Source: Candidatus Aenigmatarchaeota archaeon (GTDB lineage: Archaea; Aenigmatarchaeota; Aenigmatarchaeia; PWEA01; JACQIF01). Taken from it: a stretch of DNA of 64,000 bases. The DNA is taken from the NCBI GenBank assembly GCA_016432325.1, contig CP066684.1:640001-704000 (forward strand). The letters run 5' to 3'. Of this stretch, positions 1,245 through 55,728 are shown in pieces. A model generated the notes under the pieces. It did not search any database, was not told the origin of the DNA, and saw only the letters and a list, made by a program, of their open reading frames with translations. Each line of letters opens with the position of its first letter. The stretch's first letter is position 1. Made by a program: the position numbers and the translations under genes.

Positions 1245-1685
1245 ATGAACGCAGGAAATGACGTGTTCCCACGCGGCGTCGAAATCGTGAGCGGCGCGAT
1301 AATAAGGAGGGATGGAAAGATTCTGCTGACGAAATCTCCAAAATGGCATAACAAGTGGGTGCTTCCCGGCGGACATATAGAGGCTGGCGAACGCATTCTC
1401 GAAGCCGCCATGCGTGAAGGAGAGGAGGAAACGGGACTGAAGTTGAAGCCCGTGACTATCTTGCTGTTCGGCGAGCTCATTAATTCCAAGGATTTTCACC
1501 GTCCGGCCCACTTCATCTTTTTCGACGGTATCTTCGACGTCATCGGCGGCGAATTGAAACTACAGCAGAATGAGCTGACAGAATCCAAATGGCTCACGCC
1601 TGAGGAAGCGCTGAAGCTGGATCTGGCCGATGGCTACCCAGAGACGTTACAAAGATACATTGGGTTCCTGAAATCCAAGGTCTAG
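1245..1685 (+). CDS. NUDIX hydrolase
   Basis: Nudix box GGHIEAGE...AAMREGEEETGL. Confidence 0.92.
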   Translation: MNAGNDVFPRGVEIVSGAIIRRDGKILLTKSPKWHNKWVLPGGHIEAGERILEAAMREGEEETGLKLKPVTILLFGELINSKDFHRPAHFIFFDGIFDVIGGELKLQQNELTESKWLTPEEALKLDLADGYPETLQRYIGFLKSKV

Positions 1686-1688
1686 AAC

Positions 1689-2168
1689 TCACAAAGGCCG
1701 TCGCGCAGGGCGCGGCGGCGCGCTTTCCAGAGGCCGCTTCTCCATTATTTCACGGAGCTGTCCCGAAGATTCTTCGCCTATTCGAACGGTGACCTTAAGC
1801 CTCGGGTCGTTTGGGAACATTTCAGACAGGCTGAGCTCTTTCTCGAAGGCCTTGCCTTTCTCAAATTTGTCGCGGCCGACGACGAAGTACATCGCGCCGA
1901 CAGTTATTTTTGGCGTAGGCGGCGCGAAGCTGTGGCCTACATCCTGCGTGACTTCGTAGCCCACGACGTCGTCGTTCCACGAAATAACCTCAGCGAACGG
2001 CCTTCTTACGGACCCGTTTTCCTTCAATCCAAAAATTTCGTCGTGCGACCTGAACAGGCCGCCTGTAACATAGCCGAAGTTGTTCTCGAGTCTCTCGAAC
2101 ATTCCGACGTATTCCGTGTAGGGCTTGAATTTTGCTATTTCGATTTCGTGGACTTTCTTGCCTTTCAT
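1689..2168 (-). CDS. hypothetical protein (paralog of 2173-2616)
   Basis: Aligns by eye over most of its length with the neighbouring ORF (YVGMF..LENNFG.V.GGL.R.H; EVISWN.DV.GYEVTQ). Confidence 0.75.
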   Translation of the reverse strand: MKGKKVHEIEIAKFKPYTEYVGMFERLENNFGYVTGGLFRSHDEIFGLKENGSVRRPFAEVISWNDDVVGYEVTQDVGHSFAPPTPKITVGAMYFVVGRDKFEKGKAFEKELSLSEMFPNDPRLKVTVRIGEESSGQLREIMEKRPLESAPPRPARRPL

Positions 2169-2172
2169 AACA

Positions 2173-2616
2173 TCACGTCAGTTTTGGCCTCATGCTCTCA
2201 ACGATCGCCAGAAGACGTCGCTTTTCCTTTTCGTCCATTCGAACCGTGACCGCGAGGTCCGGGTGCTTTATTTCCGCCGAGATATACAGTTCCTTCTCTA
2301 TGGGACCCGCTCTCTCCAGTTGCTCCACACCGACGACGAAGTAGACGTTGCCCACCGTCCTTTTCGGAGTAGGCGGAAACGGGCTGTGGCCTGTCTGCTG
2401 CGTGACCTCATAACCGATGACATCTTTGTTCCACGAGATTACCTCCGTGATGGGCTCACGGATGAAGCTGTCTCCTCTGATATCGAAGAGCCTTCTATGA
2501 GTTCTCAGCAGGCCGCTGGTCACGCGACCGAAATTGTTCTCAAGGGCGTTGAACATGCCGACGTACCCGCCGTAAGGCTCGAACTTCCCTATCTCTATTT
2601 TGTGGATCTCTTTCAT
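2173..2616 (-). CDS. hypothetical protein (paralog of 1689-2168)
   Basis: Tandem duplicate, operon-like spacing. Confidence 0.75.
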   Translation of the reverse strand: MKEIHKIEIGKFEPYGGYVGMFNALENNFGRVTSGLLRTHRRLFDIRGDSFIREPITEVISWNKDVIGYEVTQQTGHSPFPPTPKRTVGNVYFVVGVEQLERAGPIEKELYISAEIKHPDLAVTVRMDEKEKRRLLAIVESMRPKLT

Positions 2617-2620
2617 CGCA

Positions 2621-3019
2621 TCAACACGCGTTGGGTGGCTTGACTTCGTGCTCGTATTGTTCTATCACGGTCCTGTGCATCTCGCGGGCTTGGCCGTTGA
2701 CGAATATCCTGTCCGCGGCGGGATCCAATTCCAGGTCCTCGAAGCATCTGTCTATCATGCCGCCGGAGAACATGTACGTTCCCACTCTTTCCGGATTCCC
2801 GGGGAGTTGGCCTTTTCCCACGGTCGGGCCTGCGTAGTAGAATATCACGCCTCTGGGCGGCAGCGGGTTGCCTCTCTCGTCCATAGGCTGGGGGTCCATG
2901 AGCCTGCCGTCTCCGTCTCTACGGGGAATCTCAATCAGAACCAAATCATTCTTTCTAATCGTGCCGTCGTCAGCGACAGCCAATTCATTCGCTCGTATCT
3001 CATGCGCTTCCGTTGCCAA
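2621..3019 (-). CDS. hypothetical protein
   Basis: ORF 4 nt upstream of the paralog pair; TATA-like tract upstream. Confidence 0.6.
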   Translation of the reverse strand: MATEAHEIRANELAVADDGTIRKNDLVLIEIPRRDGDGRLMDPQPMDERGNPLPPRGVIFYYAGPTVGKGQLPGNPERVGTYMFSGGMIDRCFEDLELDPAADRIFVNGQAREMHRTVIEQYEHEVKPPNAC

Positions 3020-3109
3020 GAAACCCGCTTCTAGTTTGCACGAAGATGGATAAATAGATTTGCCGTGACGCCGCGGCGAAAATCGCGCTTAAATACCTTT
3101 GCAAACCAA

Positions 3110-3793
3110 GAATTGGAAGCATAATAGGGTCTTGTCTGCGGAAGAGTCGTCCCGACTCGCCCAACCGCAAACATATCAGAGTACCCGGCTGAAGTGACTG
3201 TTCGGTCGCGGTGTGTTGAAAAGGACAAGATGTGTTTTCTAGACCCTGATGGTTTCGGGAAGAGAGTTAGCAAGATAGAGAAAGTTAGCTATGCCGTTTG
3301 AATATGCAAAACGCTTCTGTGAGAAGCGCGCATCTAAAACGGCCCAATAACAAGTTCGGATCCCGACCACAAGTCGGGGTTTTAGGCTGAAAAGACAGCG
3401 ATGATCGCAAAATCGTAAGTATGTTACTTACGGGGTCTGAGAGTTGTCGGGAACATAGGCGACAGTGAGTATGTGAATACCCAAAGACCGTGCCTTCTTC
3501 CGCCATCAAGGTGGAAGACTAACCGATTGTGGAATCGTTGGAAAGCGCGGGATGATTGTTTAGGAAATGATACGAGTCGCAAAACTGCTTCGCAGCAGTC
3601 TGGCTGATACCTCTGCCAGTTGCGTGGAACGCGCGATGTTCCGCTTGAAGTTCCTCATTATTCGTAAAGATGACGCCGTGCAAAGGTCCCATATTGAAAC
3701 ACAGGTTTCAAGATTTTCTGGTAAACAGAAAACTTGAGACAAGGTTTCAAGAAAAACACTTGAACAAATCAAGGTTCGATAGACCATGTTCGT
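3110..3793 (+). ncRNA. Long structured 5' leader of the 23S rRNA transcript, including the 5' strand of the processing stem
   Basis: TTAAATA near 3090; more than 10 hairpins; 3675-3690 is perfectly complementary to 7090-7105; about 3731-3791 pairs with about 6987-7070. Confidence 0.6.
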
Positions 3794-5403
3794 AAAGCTA
3801 CGCCGGCTGGTGGATGGCTTGGCTTGGGAGCTTAAGAAGGTCGTGGCAAGCAGCGATATGCTCGGGGTAGGCGCAAGTAGCCTTTGAACCCGAGATTGCC
3901 TAATGCGACTTCGCTTCCTCTTCGGAGGAAGGTCCGTAAGGACAGGGAACCCGCTGAATTGAAGCGTCTTAGTAAGCGGAGGAAGAGATACGAGAGTATG
4001 CCGTCAATAGGGGCGACCGAACGCGGCACAGGGCGATCCGAATCGCTCCAGAAATGGAAGCGAGATGTGGCGCGCACGCATTTCTTAACCGCGCGAGCGG
4101 AAGTGGACTGGAACGTCCCGCGACAAAGGGTGATAGCCCCGTACGCGAACCGCGGAAGAAAATTGTGCGCAGAGAGTACGGCTCCCCGGATACGGAGTCG
4201 GAAGACGGCGCGAACCAAGCGCCAACCCTAAACACTACCCAAGTCCGATAGTGAATTAGTATAGTGATAGAACGCTGAAAAACAGGGGTAACACCCGGTG
4301 AAAAGAATCTGAAGCCAGTCGGTTATAGTCAGCTCGGGGCCCGCAAGCCGCAAGGCGGGGTCCCGGCGTCCGTTTCGAAGAACGGGGTAGGGAGTTCATT
4401 TCAGTGGCGAGGCTAAGTCTCTTGCGAGACGGAGCCGAAGCGAAAGCGACTAGCGCGCAGGCAACGAGGCGCGCCGTGCGAAAGCGCGGGGAGTCACTGG
4501 GATGAGACCAGAAGGGCGTTGATCTATTCCTGGGCAGGGTGAAGTCGAGCGAAAGCTCGACGGAGGCCCGCCTCCGGTGTTGTGCTACGCATTCGGGCGA
4601 CCTGGGAATAGGGGTGAAAAGCCAATCGAAACGCCAGATAGCTGGTTCCTCTCGAAATGAGTTATAGCTCAGCCTCGGCGGAGACGTCATGCGGGGTAGA
4701 GTTACTGATTGAGGAGCAAAGGCGGGAAACTGCCAGCTCCGCTGTCAAACTCCGAATCCGTGTGAGTCGTAGAAGCCGGGAGTGAGTGCACGTGGATTAA
4801 GTTCGGTGCACGAAAGGGAGACAACCCAGACTGTGGTTAAGGTCCCTAAATATCTGCTAAGTCGGGAAGGTGGTCTCCAACCCAAAACAGCGGGGAGGTA
4901 GGCTTAGAAGCAGCCACCCTTTAAAAAGTTCGTAACAGATTACCCGTCTAGGTTGGGGGCGCTGAAAATGGACGGGGGTAAGCAGATTACCGATACCACA
5001 GACTACGTCTCAAGACGTTAGGTGTAGAGAGGCATGCCGCGGGGACAGAAGCGGGGGCGAAAGCTCCTGTGGACCCTGCGGTAAGGAAAATCCTACTGGT
5101 AGTAGCAGCGAACGTGGGTGAGAATCCCACGCGCCTTAAGGGCCAGGGTTCCTCGGCTCTGTAGATCAACCGAGGGTAAGCCGATCCTAACGCGTACCTT
5201 AACCGAGTACGCGGAAAGGGAAGCCGGTTAATATTCCGGCGCCACTGGCGGTTCATGTCGTTCAGGAAGCCTCAGGGTATGCCGAGTATGGCTGTCGCCT
5301 TATCGGATGTGCGAAACTGATGGAGTTTCGTAAGGAAGAGAAGTTGGCGAATCGCATTCGGCCGCTCGTACGAGCGGTTCGGCAAACCCCCGGGGCCGGT
5401 GAA

Positions 5404-49865: not shown

Positions 49866-50202
49866 ACCCTTTCGTTTCGTCTGGAACGTCGGTATTCGTT
49901 TTTCGTGAAAACGAAACGCATGGATATAGATATAACACTGTTATATCAAGATATAGATAAGAGAGGGATGTTGCAGTGGAAACGATGGGGTGGGAGGGTC
50001 TTACGAGACGTCGAAAGAGATACGACGCTAGCCCCAAACATTTCAGATCAAGAACGCACAGACGTCCAAACCGCCGGTTATATTTACTCACATAGCACAC
50101 ATTCTATAAACGTTCAAACCATCGCTTCGTGTGGAGAAAAGCTTATATACACCCTCGTTTCGTATAGAGAATTCGCTCGCTTACCATGGTTTCGTATGGA
50201 GC
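49866..50202. promoter_or_regulatory. Candidate replication origin with ORB boxes upstream of cdc6
   Basis: GTTGCAGTGGAAACGATGGGG (49970-49990), inverted GTTCCAGACGAAACGAAAGGGT (49866-49887), three further inverted mini-ORBs at 50118, 50151 and 50183; AT-rich spacer. Confidence 0.8.
49931..49945. promoter_or_regulatory. Palindromic operator TATAACACTGTTATA inside oriC
   Basis: Extends to the 19-bp palindrome GATATAACACTGTTATATC. Confidence 0.7.
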
Positions 50203-50223
50203 GCGTGTGGGGGTTGGTCGCGA

Positions 50224-51414
50224 ATGCAGATGTCTCTGGAAAACGTAATACAAGGATACCTTTCTAGACGAAGCCTGTTCAAGGACAGAAAACCGTTCAA
50301 CGGCTACACGCCGGACGAAATTCTGCACCGCGACCGTGAGATAGAGACGGCGGCGTCGATACTCTCTCCGGCTCTGAAAAACCAGAGACCCTCAAATCTG
50401 TTCGTTTACGGCAAGCCAGGAACAGGGAAGACGACTGTGATAAACCGCGTCGCAGGCGAGATACAACGCCTCTCGGAGAACCACAACACGACGGTGAAGA
50501 TGGCGTACCTGAACTGCAAGCTCAAAAACGCCGCCGACACGGAGTATCGTGTAATCGCTTCTCTCTGCAAGGCGTTTGGTCGCGACGTTCCGGCCACCGG
50601 ACTACCGACCGTCAAGATATACGACGCCTTCTTCGACGCACTTGAGGAGGCAGGCGGCACGACCATAATCGTGCTGGACGAGGTGGATTTCCTCGTCGCC
50701 AAGATAGGAGACGGCTTCCTCTACAACCTGACGCGCATCAACGACGACCTGAAGAAGGCGCGCGTTTCGATAATCGGCATATCCAACAACCTGTCCTTTA
50801 CCGGGGCCCTGGATCCCCGCGTGCGTTCGTCGCTTTCGGAGGAAGAGCTGCTCTTCCCCCCGTACAACGCGCTGCAGCTGCGCGACATATTGAAAACGCG
50901 GGCGTCGATGGCGTTCAACGAGGACGCCCTTGAAGAAGGGGTCATTGAGAAGTGCGCCGCCCTCGCGGCTCAGGAACACGGGGATGCGCGGCGCGCGCTC
51001 GACCTCCTGCGCGTCGCAGGCGAAATCGCCGAGCGCGAAGGGGCAGAACGCGTGCGGATATCACATGTTGACGTGGCGCAAGGCAAGCTGGACGAGGACC
51101 GCGTGCTGGATGCCATACGCGCGCAGCCGCGCCAGTCGCAGACCGTTCTCTGGACGGTGATGCAGAACTCTGACGCGTCAACGGGCAACGTCTACGCTCT
51201 CTACGAAACCGCCTGCAAGAACAACGGCCTCAAGCCGCTGACGCAGAGGCGCGTCTCGGACCTCATATCAGAGCTTGACGTGCTGGGCGTCGTGGAGACG
51301 CGCGTGGTCAGCAAGGGCCGTTACGGCCGCACACGCATAATACAGGCAAGGATACCGCCGCATCTTCAGGCTCATGTGAGGGACGTGCTTGTGAAAGAGT
51401 TCTTCTTCGCATAG
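50224..51414 (+). CDS. cdc6: Orc1/Cdc6 replication initiator
   Basis: Y.P....HR, GKPGTGKT, LDEVD, LDPRV.SSL, GDAR.A.DLLR, wHTH S.GRYGRTR. Confidence 0.97.
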   Translation: MQMSLENVIQGYLSRRSLFKDRKPFNGYTPDEILHRDREIETAASILSPALKNQRPSNLFVYGKPGTGKTTVINRVAGEIQRLSENHNTTVKMAYLNCKLKNAADTEYRVIASLCKAFGRDVPATGLPTVKIYDAFFDALEEAGGTTIIVLDEVDFLVAKIGDGFLYNLTRINDDLKKARVSIIGISNNLSFTGALDPRVRSSLSEEELLFPPYNALQLRDILKTRASMAFNEDALEEGVIEKCAALAAQEHGDARRALDLLRVAGEIAEREGAERVRISHVDVAQGKLDEDRVLDAIRAQPRQSQTVLWTVMQNSDASTGNVYALYETACKNNGLKPLTQRRVSDLISELDVLGVVETRVVSKGRYGRTRIIQARIPPHLQAHVRDVLVKEFFFA

Positions 51415-51433: not shown

Positions 51434-52408
51434 ATGGACGTCGTTGACGAGATGCTGCGAAAGGGGATGCTGCTGTCGCCGGAAGCCGCCGCAGTCCTGC
51501 GCAGGAAGCCGGAGCTCGTTTCAACACTGAGCGTTTCCGGCACGGTCGTCACGCTCGGAGACGTCGAACGTCCGTCTGTCGTGTGGTCCGCGCCGCAGAA
51601 AAATGCGTCCTCTGTCAGCGAGCTTGCCGAATTCTACGCCGCGCGCTTCGCGTTCTACCGCGGTCTCCTCGAGGCCAAGGCCGACCGCGCGTTGCTCGTT
51701 TCAATGTCGCAGGCGGCCGGCCACGGTTCGCGCGCGAGCATAATCGGAATCGTCCGCGAGGTCGGGCAGGGCTTTGCCGTGCTGGAAGACGGGACGAAAA
51801 CTTTGCGCGTTCGGACACAAGAGAAGCTGCTCGAGGACGAGTGTGTGCTCGTGACAGGGACGATGGACCGCGACGCGCTTGTCGCGGAGACGATACTGTT
51901 CCCGGACGTGCCCATCGGGCACGCGGCCAAGACGTCGGCCAAGGAGGCGCGGCTTGTCGTCTGTGTTGACCCAGTCGCCGCCAACGCCACAGTCCTCATA
52001 ACGAACGCGTCCGCGGACAGTTCGCGCATGAACTTCGCCGCAGGCAACTCCGTGGTGTGGCCAGACGGCGCTGACGGAACGCGCCCGGTCTCCCCGTGCC
52101 TCCTGAACATCAACGGTCTCTTCGTACTGTTCCACAGGATATCCGCGGCCGATCTCCAGCGCATCGCAGACGCGCCTGTCGACAAGGCGGCCATACGCCT
52201 CCTGCGTTCGAGGCATATCGACCCGCGGAACACGCTTCCGGGCGATCCTCTGCTTCTGCGAGACGTCCCGGACATAGTCGTTCTGGACACAGGCGTGGCG
52301 TTCTCGGCAAACTACAAAGGCGTTACTGTCGTGTCGCCGTCGCGCGAACGCGCGTACGAGATAGACCTGAGAACGCGCGAAGTCAAGGAATTCAAAGCGC
52401 AGGCCTGA
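51434..52408 (+). CDS. Truncated/degenerate DNA polymerase D small subunit (DP1)-like protein
   Basis: Directly after cdc6; OB fold (IIGIV...LEDGT...FPDVP), LLR.RH..P...DP....VPD, NYKGV; phosphoesterase SD.H and GNHD motifs absent. Confidence 0.75.
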   Translation: MDVVDEMLRKGMLLSPEAAAVLRRKPELVSTLSVSGTVVTLGDVERPSVVWSAPQKNASSVSELAEFYAARFAFYRGLLEAKADRALLVSMSQAAGHGSRASIIGIVREVGQGFAVLEDGTKTLRVRTQEKLLEDECVLVTGTMDRDALVAETILFPDVPIGHAAKTSAKEARLVVCVDPVAANATVLITNASADSSRMNFAAGNSVVWPDGADGTRPVSPCLLNINGLFVLFHRISAADLQRIADAPVDKAAIRLLRSRHIDPRNTLPGDPLLLRDVPDIVVLDTGVAFSANYKGVTVVSPSRERAYEIDLRTREVKEFKAQA

Positions 52409-52910
52409 GATGGGACCACGGGATGTGAGTCTCCGCGAACAGGTCCGCGCGCAGGTTTTCCACATGGACAGAACCGACGTCGACGGATTCGAATCGCGTT
52501 GCATACGCCCCGCACCAGTCAGCGACCCTTTTCGGCGTCAGCGTCTCGCTCTTGTGGAAAAACAGTCTGCTGTGGAATCCGTTGGCCCCCCACTTCTGGG
52601 CTCTGGCCGACACGTGGCCGCCTGTAACGTCGGCTATGAAATCGGCGGTAGACGCGGCGTCCTCACTACGACCGCGTTCCGTGTAGACGTCGACTCTTGG
52701 AGAGTGCTTGCCGTTGAGCCGTATGAAATGGCGTGCGTCGTAAGACGCGCCGCCCGGACCGCGAAGATTGACGTCAACGCGCCTGCACGCATCTTCCGGA
52801 AGCATCCTCAGTTCGTCCAGCGTCGGCGCGCCTATCACGTAGTCCGTTAAAATTATCGGAGCTTCCGGCACCTCGTCTCCAGTCGGTTTAAGAACGTCAA
52901 ACAGTCCCAT
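52392..52910 (-). CDS. hypothetical protein
   Basis: ORF with TTAAATA upstream. Confidence 0.55.
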   Translation of the reverse strand: MGLFDVLKPTGDEVPEAPIILTDYVIGAPTLDELRMLPEDACRRVDVNLRGPGGASYDARHFIRLNGKHSPRVDVYTERGRSEDAASTADFIADVTGGHVSARAQKWGANGFHSRLFFHKSETLTPKRVADWCGAYATRFESVDVGSVHVENLRADLFAETHIPWSHLRPAL

Positions 52911-53037
52911 AAAATCCCTTCAATAAACGCACTAACCTATTTAAGCGGCACGAAACGCGCCGCACAAACCTCTATAATCCGCGCCACAAATCTATTTTAT
53001 ACTACGAGTGCAACTAAAACGCCTTCGGGGGTTAGGC

Positions 53038-55728
53038 ATGCGGCTGCAGGTATTGGACGCAGACTACACAATGCTGGACAACAAGCCTCTGATGCGCATA
53101 TTCTGCAAGCGGCCCGACGGGAAGAGCGTGTGCGTCTTCTACCGGAACTTCCTGCCTTATCTCTACGCGCTTCCGCGGGGCAGCGACGAGGACGTGACGG
53201 CGCTTCTCAGGAAAAGGTTCGGCGGCGAGCTCCTTAACGTCGAGCGCGTCGAGCGTTTCCTGCCTATCGGCTACAACGACACGCCGGCGAAGCTTCTTAA
53301 AATAACGCTCCGCACGCCCTCGAAGGTGCCGGAAGCGAAGGAGGCGCTCGCGTCCATCGCAGAGCTGTACGAAGCGGACGTCCTGTTTCGCTACAGATTC
53401 TTTTCCGATTTCGGCATCGGCGGCATGGGATGGATAGACGTCGAAGGTTCCAACGCGAGCACGTCTACGGTTTACTGCCCTGTGATAGAGGCGACGTCAA
53501 TAACGCCCGTCCAATCGGAGGAAAACGTGCCTCTGCGCTACATGTCTCTCGACATCGAATGCGTTCCTCTTGAGATGGCCGGAATAGCCGGGGCCGAGAA
53601 AGACCCGATAATAATGATGTCCCTGATATTCGAGCCCGGGCACAAGGACAGGCGTAGCGTGGTCCTCGCCTCAAGACTCGGCATCACGAACGCCGAATGC
53701 TATCCGGACGAGAAGCAGATGCTCCAGGCGTTCATCGACGTCGTGCGAGCGTACGACCCCGACGTGCTCGTGGGTTACAATATCCAGAACTTCGACCTCC
53801 CGTACATCCTCAAACGCCTGGAGATTCACGGCTTGGAACGCAAGCTAGGCCGCGCGGACAAGACGACGTTTACGCGCACCATGGTCGGCAAGCAGGCCAC
53901 GGACGTCATTGGCCGTGTGGTCGCGGACCCGTACGTGATAATACGAAAACCCGACATAAGCACCATGCCGGGGTTCGCCAGGTTCAAGCGTTATGATCTC
54001 AACACGGTCGCGCACGACCTCCTCGGCGAGGAGAAGATAAAGATAGACCACAAGGAGATGCGTGACGCGTGGCTGGCCCGCCAGAAGATGGAGACGTACG
54101 TCGAGTACTGCCGCAAGGACGCGGCGCTTGCGCTTAACATACTGCTGAAATACCAGATGATGGACAAGTACGTCGCCATCGCGCGCCTCTCCGGGATCAC
54201 GCTGCAGGACTCGATCAACGGCGGCCAGAGCACGCGCATAGAAAATCTCCTGCTCAACGAGTTCAACAGGCGCGGCTTCGTGATGCCCCTCAAGCCCGGG
54301 GACGAGGAAGACGCAGAACGCGAAGCGGAACGAGGGCAGACGGAGTACAAAGGAGGTCTCGTGCTCGAGCCGGAGAAAGGACTGCACACGGACGGCTGTA
54401 TTGCCGTATTGGACTTCAAGAGTCTGTATCCTTCGATAATCATGACCTACAACGTCTGTCCCACAACGCTCGTCAGGAGCGACACGAACGCGTCGCTCAA
54501 CGTCTCTCCAGCAGGCGCCAAGTTCGTGACGGCGGACGTCCGCGAAGGAATACTGCCCGCGATACTCGGCAGGCTGATAGACGAGCGCGCGGCGGTGAAG
54601 AAGCAGATGAAGTCCGCCAGCGGAACGGCCAAGGCCGTGCTGGACGCCAAGCAGTTCGCCCTGAAGATGGCCACGAATTCGTTCTACGGCTACACAGGAT
54701 ACCTGCGCGCGCGGATATACGTCCTGGACGTGGCGAACGCGATAACGGCATACGGGCGCACGCTGATAGAACAGACCAGGGACACGATAGAAGGCCACGG
54801 CTACAAGGTCGTCTACGGCGACACGGACTCAGTGATGATAAAAATCCCCACGCGAAACCTGGACGAGGCCTACACCATAGGAAACGACCTCTCGCGCGAG
54901 ATAACGGAATCCCTGCCCGGAAGGCTCGAACTGGACTTCGATAAAATCTTCCGCTCGTTCCTCATTCTTACCAAGAAGCGCTACGCCGGATGGTCCTTCG
55001 AGAAGACGGGCGACAAATGGAGCGACAAGATAGAGATGAAGGGAATCGAGACCGTGCGCCGCGACTGGTGCGATCTCGTGTCAGAGACAATGGAAAACGT
55101 GATAGAGACCATCCTGAAGGAAGGCGACATCGGCAAGGCGATGGGAACCGTCAAGGAGCAGGTCGAGCGGCTCAAGCAGGGAAACGTGGACATCTACAAG
55201 CTGGCGATAACGAAAGGCCTCACGAAGAGCACGGAGCGCTACGACGGGATGCTGCCGCACGTGGAGCTGGCGAAGCGGATGAAGAAGCGCGGCGGCGCGC
55301 CCGCGGCCGGCGACAGGATACAGTTCGTAATCGTTTCCGGGAACGCCCTGATAAGCCAGCGCGCCGAAGACCCCGAGTACATTATACAGAACAAGCTAAG
55401 GATAGACAGCGACTACTATATCGGCTCGCAGCTGCTGCCGCCTCTGGAGCGCATCTTTGCCGTGATGGGAATCGAACGCAACGAGCTGACCGGCGGAGGC
55501 CGCCAGATAAGCCTCTTCGAAGCCATGAACGGCGGCAAGCCCCAGCGGAAGTTCTCTGTTGTGAGCGAGATGAACCCCGACAAGGCGGTCGTCACCAACG
55601 TCGAGGGCTTTTCGTGCCGCTCCTGCAAAACAACGTTCCGCCGCGTGCCGATTCTCGGCAAGTGCGACTGCGGCGGAGAAATCTACGCGTACGGCGGCGG
55701 CATGATGGGCAAGACAGTGGCGGTTTGA
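53038..55728 (+). CDS. polB: family B DNA polymerase with C-terminal Zn finger
   Basis: DIE, YN..NFD, YC..D exonuclease motifs; DFKSLYPS, K...NS.YG, YGDTDS, KKRY. Confidence 0.97.
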   Translation: MRLQVLDADYTMLDNKPLMRIFCKRPDGKSVCVFYRNFLPYLYALPRGSDEDVTALLRKRFGGELLNVERVERFLPIGYNDTPAKLLKITLRTPSKVPEAKEALASIAELYEADVLFRYRFFSDFGIGGMGWIDVEGSNASTSTVYCPVIEATSITPVQSEENVPLRYMSLDIECVPLEMAGIAGAEKDPIIMMSLIFEPGHKDRRSVVLASRLGITNAECYPDEKQMLQAFIDVVRAYDPDVLVGYNIQNFDLPYILKRLEIHGLERKLGRADKTTFTRTMVGKQATDVIGRVVADPYVIIRKPDISTMPGFARFKRYDLNTVAHDLLGEEKIKIDHKEMRDAWLARQKMETYVEYCRKDAALALNILLKYQMMDKYVAIARLSGITLQDSINGGQSTRIENLLLNEFNRRGFVMPLKPGDEEDAEREAERGQTEYKGGLVLEPEKGLHTDGCIAVLDFKSLYPSIIMTYNVCPTTLVRSDTNASLNVSPAGAKFVTADVREGILPAILGRLIDERAAVKKQMKSASGTAKAVLDAKQFALKMATNSFYGYTGYLRARIYVLDVANAITAYGRTLIEQTRDTIEGHGYKVVYGDTDSVMIKIPTRNLDEAYTIGNDLSREITESLPGRLELDFDKIFRSFLILTKKRYAGWSFEKTGDKWSDKIEMKGIETVRRDWCDLVSETMENVIETILKEGDIGKAMGTVKEQVERLKQGNVDIYKLAITKGLTKSTERYDGMLPHVELAKRMKKRGGAPAAGDRIQFVIVSGNALISQRAEDPEYIIQNKLRIDSDYYIGSQLLPPLERIFAVMGIERNELTGGGRQISLFEAMNGGKPQRKFSVVSEMNPDKAVVTNVEGFSCRSCKTTFRRVPILGKCDCGGEIYAYGGGMMGKTVAV

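What the first reader, a model, noticed from the sequence alone, without database searches (positions are those of the whole stretch)
51434..55728. PolB with a PolD-DP2-like Zn finger near an apparently inactive DP1, next to oriC
Seen: after a PIP-like QISLF, PolB ends in FSCRSCKTTFRRVPILGKCDCGG (about 55609-55677), resembling the DP2 C-terminal FRC..C..KYRR.PL.GKC..CGG finger. The gene after cdc6 is a shortened DP1 homolog without phosphoesterase catalytic motifs. Established: eukaryotic Pol alpha/delta/epsilon bind inactivated DP1-like B subunits through C-terminal metal-binding domains, and such domains have been reported in some archaeal PolBs. Inference: a eukaryote-like PolB/B-subunit replicase.
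Basis: partly seen in the sequence, partly recalled or inferred. Interest (0 to 1): 0.72.

Follow-up and report, generated by a model that had tools for sequence, protein, structure and literature searches.

The report
Known aenigmarchaeal PolB plus dead-DP1 replicase
This small archaeal genome has lost its usual PolD polymerase and instead encodes a family-B polymerase carrying PolD's zinc-finger docking tail beside a shrunken, enzymatically dead DP1 subunit, a eukaryote-like arrangement that is real here but already published for this phylum and supported there by two-hybrid assays.

Summary
The PolB (53038-55728) has intact exonuclease and polymerase motifs and an internal PIP-like box. It ends in a C4 finger (C870, C873, C886, C888). 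The profile of this tail matches Zn-III of DP2 (E 8e-6). The gene after cdc6 (51434-52408) is a true DP1 homologue (profile E 1.6e-30; Foldseek E 1.7e-17). It lacks about 190 residues of the phosphoesterase domain and all the metal-binding histidine motifs.

The closed 0.87-Mb genome has no DP2 and no intact DP1. In 121 genomes sampled from the phylum, the short DP1 occurs in all. A finger-bearing PolB occurs in about 113. DP2 occurs in only six, and those carry a full-length DP1. A complex prediction supports binding (0.63 against 0.00 for the controls).

Kazlauskas et al. 2020 described this system as "B6-aenigma1" PolB with inactivated DP1 in Aenigmarchaeota. A 2025 Nature Ecology & Evolution paper reported a two-hybrid interaction between aenigmatarchaeal DP1 and the finger-bearing PolB. 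The oriC-cdc6-DP1 linkage is also a known archaeal pattern.

Small additions here are the size of the deletion and how strictly the cdc6-DP1-PolB cluster is conserved. The same stretch was also noted by first readers of an overlapping window of this genome.

The parts
49868..50201 (.). Predicted replication origin. It holds ORB-like repeats (49872, 50122, 50155, 50187 in one orientation; a classic ORB-like GCAGTGGAAAC plus G-run at 49969-49998 in the other). These flank an AT-rich palindromic stretch at 49924-49965.
   Evidence: There are 7 matches to the repeat in the window against 1.98 expected, and four of them cluster here. GC falls to 40-47%. Origin function is inferred, not shown.
50224..51414 (+). 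orc1/cdc6 initiator. The ORF opens at GTG 50131, but the family match starts at residue 33, and the upstream extension overlaps the ORB repeats. The probable start is therefore ATG 50224.
   Evidence: TIGR02928 E 4.5e-122; Cdc6_lid; Cdc6_C.
51434..52408 (+). Truncated, catalytically dead DP1 / B-subunit homologue (324 aa). It has a DP1N-like helical N-domain, an OB fold and a remnant of the C-terminal half of the phosphoesterase domain.
   Evidence: (pLDDT 91.3).
53038..55728 (+). Family-B DNA polymerase with intact exonuclease and polymerase motifs and a C-terminal extension. The ORF opens at GTG 53008, but the likely start is ATG 53038.
   Evidence: Exo motifs DIE, NIQNFD and YCRKD, and pol motifs DFKSLYPS, KMATNSFYG, YGDTDS and KKRY, can be read directly.
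55504..55527 (+). Internal PIP-like box QISLFEAM. It aligns with the C-terminal PCNA-binding tail of canonical archaeal PolBs. Relatives have QxxIxxIF or QxxIxxLF.
   Evidence: profile positions 10-52 align to residues 726-768 of Thermococcales PolBs.
55609..55677 (+). DP2 Zn-III-like C4 finger (C870, C873, C886, C888) with the FRRxPxxGKC loop. This is the predicted docking element for the DP1-like subunit.

Best explanation
This is the replicase typical of Aenigmatarchaeota (DPANN archaea). The PolD catalytic subunit DP2 has been lost. A proofreading-competent family-B polymerase of the Pol-delta-like 'B6-aenigma1' group has taken over a shortened copy of DP2's C-terminal docking element, the Zn-III finger with its basic FRRxP loop, placed just after the PolB's own PIP box. 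Through this finger the polymerase binds the old PolD small subunit DP1. DP1 has lost its Mre11-like exonuclease site and about 190 residues of its phosphoesterase domain, so it survives only as a scaffold made of an N-domain, an OB fold and half a PDE domain. Proofreading is done by the PolB exonuclease. By analogy with PolD and with eukaryotic Pol alpha/delta/epsilon, the dead DP1 most likely links the polymerase to the helicase/GINS and to events at the origin (inferred). The genes lie in the ancestral oriC-cdc6-DP1 island. What is shown here: homology, loss of motifs, absence of DP2, co-distribution and linkage.
For: (1) The PolB is active by its motifs and has Pfam PolB and exo domains. 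Its best solved match is human Pol delta (378.8 bits), level with Thermococcales PolB. The genome's second PolB matches Thermococcales PolB far better (548 against 141 bits).
(2) The tail profile hits DP2 Zn-III (E 8e-6; BLASTP E 4e-6).
(3) The DP1-like family profile hits solved DP1 at E 1.6e-30, with one long deletion. The AF2 model has pLDDT 91.3. Foldseek's top hits are P. abyssi DP1 (E 1.7e-17), followed by the B subunits of Pol epsilon, delta and alpha.
(4) All five phosphoesterase motifs are lost when compared with intact DP1s of the same phylum.
(5) No DP2 and no PF04042 were found in the one-contig genome.
(6) In the 121 phylum genomes, the short DP1 is in 121. DP2 is in 6: all 5 genomes of family f7, which have 460-523-aa DP1 frames and no finger-bearing PolB, plus one f12 genome (G091). 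G091 carries a longer DP1 and DP2 on one small contig in addition to the short DP1 and a finger-bearing PolB, so it may be contaminated. A finger-bearing PolB is in about 113.
(7) Linkage: by my count, cdc6 lies within about 1 kb of the DP1-like gene in 81 of 82 non-f7 genomes that have the close cdc6 orthologue. The PolB is usually within 1-5 kb on the same contig. The same order cdc6, DP1-like, PolB is seen on an unrelated 5.4-kb metagenome contig.
(8) Complex prediction: the model supports binding. The score is 0.63 and the best of 3 controls is 0.00. That mark was reached by 58 of 80 solved complexes and by 2 of 110 mismatched pairs. The runs agree in at least 53% of their contacts, and the partner's pLDDT is at least 53. 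The interface is PolB F877-G884 plus the last six residues, against DP1-like helix 56-72 and OB strands 106-108, 118-123 and 134-135.
(9) Literature: PMC7544198 describes B6-aenigma1 with inactive DP1. PMC12680538 reports that DP1 binds PolB-DP2CTD in Aenigmatarchaeota by two-hybrid assay. PMC6355029 shows that Zn-III with its RR loop docks at the OB/PDE groove of DP1.
Against: No experiment has been done on this organism's proteins. The complex prediction may pass by likeness to solved DP1-DP2 and CTD/B-subunit complexes, and my own alignments were used, so its calibration holds only roughly. The tail lacks the helical bundle that contacts the PDE domain in PolD and in eukaryotic polymerases, and half of that PDE domain is missing here, so the interface must be smaller than in the known complexes. 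Placement of the PolB in group B6 was not tested with a tree against reference sequences. A role for DP1 in GINS or origin coupling is purely by analogy; the GINS search gave only a sub-threshold hit.
Confidence: 0.88

Rival explanations
1. The DP1 remnant does not serve the PolB. It works with Orc1/Cdc6 (or GINS) at the origin as an initiation or helicase-loading adaptor. The PolB finger has another job.
For: The tightest linkage is cdc6 to DP1-like: a 20-bp gap here, and adjacency in 81 of 82 genomes. In family f12 the DP1-like gene stays next to the PolB but not next to cdc6, so the two linkages can be separated. Berthon et al. (PMC2643942) proposed that Cdc6 recruits PolD through DP1. The DP1N-like N-domain is retained.
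Against: This is not exclusive of the main reading. The short DP1 and the finger-bearing PolB co-occur, and both are missing exactly where PolD is kept. The predicted interface uses the conserved FRRxP loop. A two-hybrid interaction has been published for the phylum (PMC12680538).
Confidence: 0.07
2. The C-terminal finger is mainly a DNA- or PCNA-contacting element that improves processivity, as Zn-III also touches the minor groove in PolD. The DP1 remnant is then a decaying relic.
For: Zn-III of PolD contacts nascent duplex DNA (PMC6355029). The finger sits next to a PIP-like box. The DP1 homologue is heavily reduced.
Against: A relic would not be kept in 121 of 121 sampled genomes with a confidently folded structure (pLDDT 91.3) and conserved surface residues. 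The residues shared with intact DP1 (RRH, VPD, NYKG) lie in the retained PDE half.
Confidence: 0.04
3. A normal PolD exists elsewhere in the genome and the DP1-like protein pairs with it.
For: The genome is scored only 90% complete by marker genes.
Against: It is a single 874,869-bp contig. It has no PF03833 hit and no PF04042 hit, and a DP2 from the same phylum finds nothing. In the phylum, 115 of 121 genomes also lack DP2.
Confidence: 0.01

Closest known systems
[quoted passage not shown] 2020, PMC7544198). The two-hybrid-tested aenigmatarchaeal PolB-DP2CTD/DP1 pair is in PMC12680538.
   Same: Same phylum by the annotation of the nearest relatives. One C4 motif most like DP2 Zn-III. DP2 absent. 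DP1 inactivated. The PolB is Pol-delta-like in similarity.
   Different: Nothing essential. This is another genome of the same kind. Two details were not found in the main text of either paper (only text searches were done; supplements were not checked): the deletion of about 190 residues in the PDE domain, and the near-universal cdc6, DP1-like, PolB cluster.
Archaeal PolD (DP1-DP2), e.g. P. abyssi 6HMS and T. kodakarensis 6KNB
   Same: The small subunit is homologous (N-domain, OB, PDE). The docking finger with its basic RR-P loop is homologous. The gene sits beside cdc6/oriC, as in Thermococcales, Halobacteriales and Methanosarcinales (PMC2643942).
   Different: The catalytic subunit is a family-B polymerase rather than a two-barrel DP2. 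The DP1 exonuclease site and half of the PDE domain are gone. The helical bundle of the DP2 C-terminal domain is not evident in the 70-residue tail.
Eukaryotic Pol delta/alpha/epsilon catalytic-subunit CTD with B subunit (e.g. 3E0J, 4Y97, 5VBN)
   Same: A PolB catalytic subunit with a C-terminal metal-binding module binds an inactivated DP1-like B subunit. The model of the DP1-like protein matches these B subunits (Foldseek E 1e-13 to 1e-15).
   Different: There is one Cys motif instead of two (no CysA). There is no helical bundle and no sign of an Fe-S cluster. The B subunit is much smaller, with part of the PDE domain deleted rather than only mutated.
Baldrarchaeia PolB3-DP2CTD (PMC12680538)
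   Same: An archaeal PolB fused to a DP2-derived C-terminal domain, in a lineage without DP2, which binds DP1.
   Different: According to that paper the Baldrarchaeia CTD is full-length and eukaryote-like. The aenigmatarchaeal one, as here, is shorter and 'degenerate'.

Membership tests
B6-aenigma1 PolB (Kazlauskas 2020) | Family-B polymerase with intact polymerase and 3'-5' exonuclease motifs | tested here: met
   PF00136 E 9.6e-121 and PF03104 E 7.2e-31. The catalytic motifs can be read.
B6-aenigma1 PolB (Kazlauskas 2020) | A single C-terminal Cys4 motif most similar to DP2 Zn-III | tested here: met
   CxxC-x12-CxC is invariant in 11 relatives. The profile hits DP2 Zn-III at E 8e-6. BLASTP to a same-phylum DP2 gives E 4e-6.
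B6-aenigma1 PolB (Kazlauskas 2020) | Phylogenetic placement in group B6, sister to the eukaryotic Delta-like clade | not tested
   No reference B6 sequences were available for a tree. There is only indirect support: the best solved match is human Pol delta, and the nearest relatives are annotated Candidatus Aenigmarchaeota.
B6-aenigma1 PolB (Kazlauskas 2020) | Host genome lacks DP2 | tested here: met
   (own genome, one contig). In the phylum sample, 115 of 121 genomes have no PF03833.
DP1 / DNA polymerase B-subunit superfamily | OB fold followed by a calcineurin-like phosphoesterase fold, homologous to DP1 | tested here: met
   Profile against PDB DP1, E 1.6e-30. Foldseek E 1.7e-17 to DP1 and 1e-13 to 1e-15 to eukaryotic B subunits. 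The PDE fold is only half present.
Active DP1 exonuclease (PolD small subunit) | Five metal-binding phosphoesterase motifs (DxH, GDxxDG, GNHD, H, GHxH) | tested here: not met
   In the alignment with three intact DP1s of the same phylum, the motifs are deleted or replaced. There is no PF00149 or PF04042 hit, whereas the intact DP1s hit both.
Eukaryote-type PolB/B-subunit holoenzyme | Physical binding of the catalytic subunit's C-terminal metal module to the B subunit | tested here: inconclusive
   Prediction only. The score is 0.63 against a best control of 0.00; the mark was reached by 58 of 80 solved complexes and by 2 of 110 mismatched pairs. The pass may reflect likeness to solved complexes. 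Two-hybrid support exists for another member of the phylum (PMC12680538), not for this protein.
Eukaryote-type PolB/B-subunit holoenzyme | Two Cys motifs (CysA and CysB) and a helical bundle in the CTD | tested here: not met
   There are only four cysteines in one motif, and about 30 residues lie between the PIP-like box and the finger.
Archaeal oriC | Inverted ORB repeats flanking an AT-rich unwinding element next to orc1/cdc6 | tested here: met
   Origin firing cannot be tested here.

The most novel reading that the evidence does not exclude
The aenigmatarchaeal DP1 remnant is a 'minimal B subunit'. Losing the whole N-terminal half of the phosphoesterase domain while keeping DP1N, the OB fold and the C-terminal PDE half would show which parts are sufficient to dock a Zn-III finger. 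Its near-invariant position directly after cdc6 at the origin, with the PolB in the place DP2 holds in Thermococcales, would mean two things. DP2 was displaced in situ inside the ancestral oriC-cdc6-DP1 island. And the dead DP1 is kept chiefly for an origin or GINS-coupling role, like Dpb2 in eukaryotic CMG assembly. Neither point was found in the main text of the two papers searched.
Probability: 0.3. Interest if true: 0.4.

Novelty: already known. Interest (0 to 1): 0.22.

Why it matters
The PolB plus dead-DP1 pair is one of the few prokaryotic models for how eukaryotic Pol alpha/delta/epsilon acquired their B subunits: a PolB captures the docking tail of PolD, and DP1 loses its nuclease. 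That significance is already recognised in the literature. This window adds a closed-genome example in which the absence of DP2 cannot be blamed on a fragmented assembly. It also adds phylum-wide counts showing that a finger-bearing PolB and PolD almost never occur in the same genome, and that the cdc6, DP1-like, PolB cluster is conserved.

Tried and rejected
- The word-indexed homologue search for the DP1-like protein found only one relative. The exhaustive HMMER search was needed and gave 291 representatives.
- ORF 52410-52850 and the antisense ORF 52392-52910, both in the 630-bp spacer, have no Pfam or NCBIfam family and no homologue. They are treated as non-genes.
- Rfam and tRNA scans of 47-57 kb found nothing.
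- The Pfam Sld5 search for GINS gave only a sub-threshold hit. That model rang in just 1 of 14 control genomes, so it says little.
- A full-length DP2 from the same phylum found nothing in this genome.
- The idea that DP2 was replaced in situ could not be tested inside the phylum. In the five PolD-retaining genomes of family f7, DP1, DP2 and cdc6 lie on different contigs.
- Cumulative GC skew at 2-kb resolution gave no clear origin signal.
Full report
**What is in the sequence.** The region reads, all on the + strand:
- an orc1/cdc6 gene (ORF 50131-51414; the family match begins at residue 33, so the start is probably ATG 50224);
- 20 bp later, a 324-aa ORF (51434-52408);
- a 630-bp spacer without a credible gene;
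- a PolB gene (ORF from 53008; the database form starts at ATG 53038; ends 55728).

The PolB has Pfam polymerase and exonuclease domains (E 9.6e-121 and 7.2e-31). All the usual catalytic motifs can be read in the translation. After the thumb it carries QISLFEAM (residues 833-840). It then ends in FSCRSCKTTFRRVPILGKCDCGG (868-890, DNA 55609-55677) followed by 16 more residues.

**Is the DP2 likeness real?** Yes.
- The single sequence weakly hits the C-terminus of two NCBIfam DP2 models (E 0.011 and 0.049).
- An alignment of the tail with ten relatives shows the four cysteines, the RR-x-P loop and the CGG to be invariant.
- The profile of that alignment hits Zn-III of solved DP2 chains at E 8e-6 and 2.7e-5.
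- BLASTP against the DP2 of a PolD-retaining member of the same phylum gives 43% identity over the finger (E 4e-6).
- The stretch before the finger aligns with the C-terminal PCNA-binding tail of Thermococcales PolBs. Relatives have QxxIxxIF or QxxIxxLF there. So the PIP-like box is inherited from PolB, and the finger was added after it.

**The DP1-like protein.**
- It has no Pfam hit. It matches an NCBIfam DP1 model over the OB part (E 2.2e-14).
- An exhaustive search found 291 cluster representatives, mostly 270-390 aa.
- A profile of 74 of these matches solved DP1 at E 1.6e-30. The match covers the N-terminal domain, the OB fold and the C-terminal part of the phosphoesterase domain, with one gap of about 190 DP1 residues.
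- The AlphaFold model is confident (pLDDT 91.3). Its best structural matches are P. abyssi DP1 (E 1.7e-17), then the B subunits of human Pol epsilon and delta and of Pol alpha.
- I aligned it with three intact DP1s taken from PolD-retaining genomes of the same phylum; two of these were checked and hit Metallophos and DNA_pol_E_B. Motifs DxH, GDxxDG, GNHD, the lone H and GHxH are deleted or replaced. RRH, VPD and NYKG in the retained half are conserved.
- The description 'shortened DP1 without catalytic motifs' is therefore correct.

**Is there a PolD elsewhere?** The window lies in a single 874,869-bp contig. That genome has no PF03833 hit (DP2), no PF04042 hit (DP1 PDE), and no match to a same-phylum DP2. 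It has two PolBs. The second is a canonical Thermococcales-like enzyme of 829 aa with a C-terminal PIP box and no finger. The finger-bearing PolB is as similar to human Pol delta as to archaeal PolB3.

**Distribution and linkage.** The nearest relatives are annotated Candidatus Aenigmarchaeota. I sampled 121 genomes from the phylum.
- The short DP1-like gene was found in all 121.
- DP2 was found in six. These are all five genomes of one family (f7), whose DP1 frames are 460-523 aa, plus G091. G091 also carries a longer DP1 with DP2 on one small contig, which may be contamination.
- A PolB tail that runs through the finger was found in about 113 genomes and in none of family f7. In f7 the only finger matches lie in the DP2 frames.
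- By my comparison of coordinates, the close cdc6 orthologue lies within about 1 kb of the DP1-like gene in 81 of 82 non-f7 genomes that have it.
- The PolB is usually 1-5 kb away on the same contig, either co-directional or convergent.
- An unrelated 5.4-kb metagenome contig has the same order cdc6, DP1-like, PolB, with only 84 bp between the last two.

**Binding.** The complex prediction of the DP1-like family with the PolB tail supports binding but does not show it.
- The score is 0.63 and the best of three controls is 0.00. That mark was reached by 58 of 80 solved complexes and by 2 of 110 mismatched pairs.
- The runs agree in at least 53% of their contacts, and the partner's pLDDT is at least 53.
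- The confident contacts are PolB F877-G884 (the FRRVPILG loop) and the last six residues, against helix 56-72 and OB strands of the DP1-like protein.
- This mirrors the published PolD interface, in which the Zn-III loop with its two arginines sits in the OB/PDE groove (PMC6355029). The pass may therefore come from likeness to solved complexes.

**Origin.** Upstream of cdc6 the GC content falls to 40-47%. Four copies of a 15-nt repeat lie at 49872, 50122, 50155 and 50187. An ORB-like GCAGTGGAAAC followed by a G-run lies in the opposite orientation at 49969-49998. An AT-rich palindrome lies at 49924-49965. The repeat has 7 matches in the window against 1.98 expected. This is the usual anatomy of an archaeal oriC. 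Function is inferred. Linkage of oriC, cdc6 and DP1 is already known for Thermococcales, Halobacteriales and Methanosarcinales (PMC2643942).

**Comparison with what is known.**
- Kazlauskas et al. [quoted passage not shown] They noted that most Aenigmarchaeota lack DP2 and described an inactivated DP1 group that co-occurs with these PolBs. They proposed that DP2 was replaced by this PolB.
[quoted passage not shown] It calls the aenigmatarchaeal tail a shorter, degenerate DP2 CTD. It reports AlphaFold3 models and yeast two-hybrid assays in which DP1 bound the PolB with the DP2-derived tail but not the canonical PolBs.
Text searches of the two papers did not find the cdc6, DP1-like, PolB cluster or the size of the PDE deletion. 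Those are modest additions.

**Verdict.** This is a real feature, correctly read, and a further member of a published system. The mechanism I commit to has these parts:
- the PolB does both synthesis and proofreading;
- its Zn-III-derived finger docks on the dead DP1;
- DP1 acts as a scaffold, probably towards GINS/CMG and the origin; this last step is by analogy only.

Confidence in the identification is about 0.9. Novelty: already known. Interest is low to moderate.

Noticed in passing
window 52409-53037: There is a 630-bp GC-rich spacer between the DP1-like gene and the PolB. A relative has only 84 bp here (L003). The ORFs on both strands have no family and no homologue, and no Rfam or tRNA hit was found. 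The origin of this extra DNA is unexplained.
   Followed up: partly
L002 (G000:C1:38445-42710), ORF 1423-3912 minus strand: A second PolB of 829 aa. It is canonical and Thermococcales-like (548 bits), with intact motifs and a C-terminal PIP box QATIRKFV but no Zn tail. The genome therefore keeps two apparently active PolBs.
   Followed up: partly
G005, G016, G027, G060, G098 (family f7 of the phylum); loci L004-L007: One family within the phylum keeps a full PolD (intact DP1 of 472-494 aa plus DP2) and lacks the finger-bearing PolB. There DP1, DP2 and cdc6 lie on different contigs.
   Followed up: partly
G091 contig C64 (998-3058): One genome with the short DP1 and a finger-bearing PolB also carries a longer DP1 and a DP2 side by side on a small contig. 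This may be contamination or a mobile element.
   Followed up: no
Family f12 of the phylum (e.g. G020, G024, G045): In this family the cdc6 homologue is much more divergent (E 1e-31 to 1e-51) and is not next to the DP1-like gene. The DP1-like to PolB adjacency is nevertheless kept.
   Followed up: no
G106:C2:350757, G115:C96:19235, G022:C67:8990, G064:C4:105183, G118:C16:6859: The finger-bearing PolB lies in open frames of 1317-1730 aa in several relatives. This suggests inteins or fusions in those PolBs.
   Followed up: no
window 50131-50223: The GTG-initiated 5' extension of the cdc6 ORF overlaps three ORB-like repeats and is probably not translated. A second, distant cdc6 paralogue lies at G000:C1:139875-140861.
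   Followed up: partly
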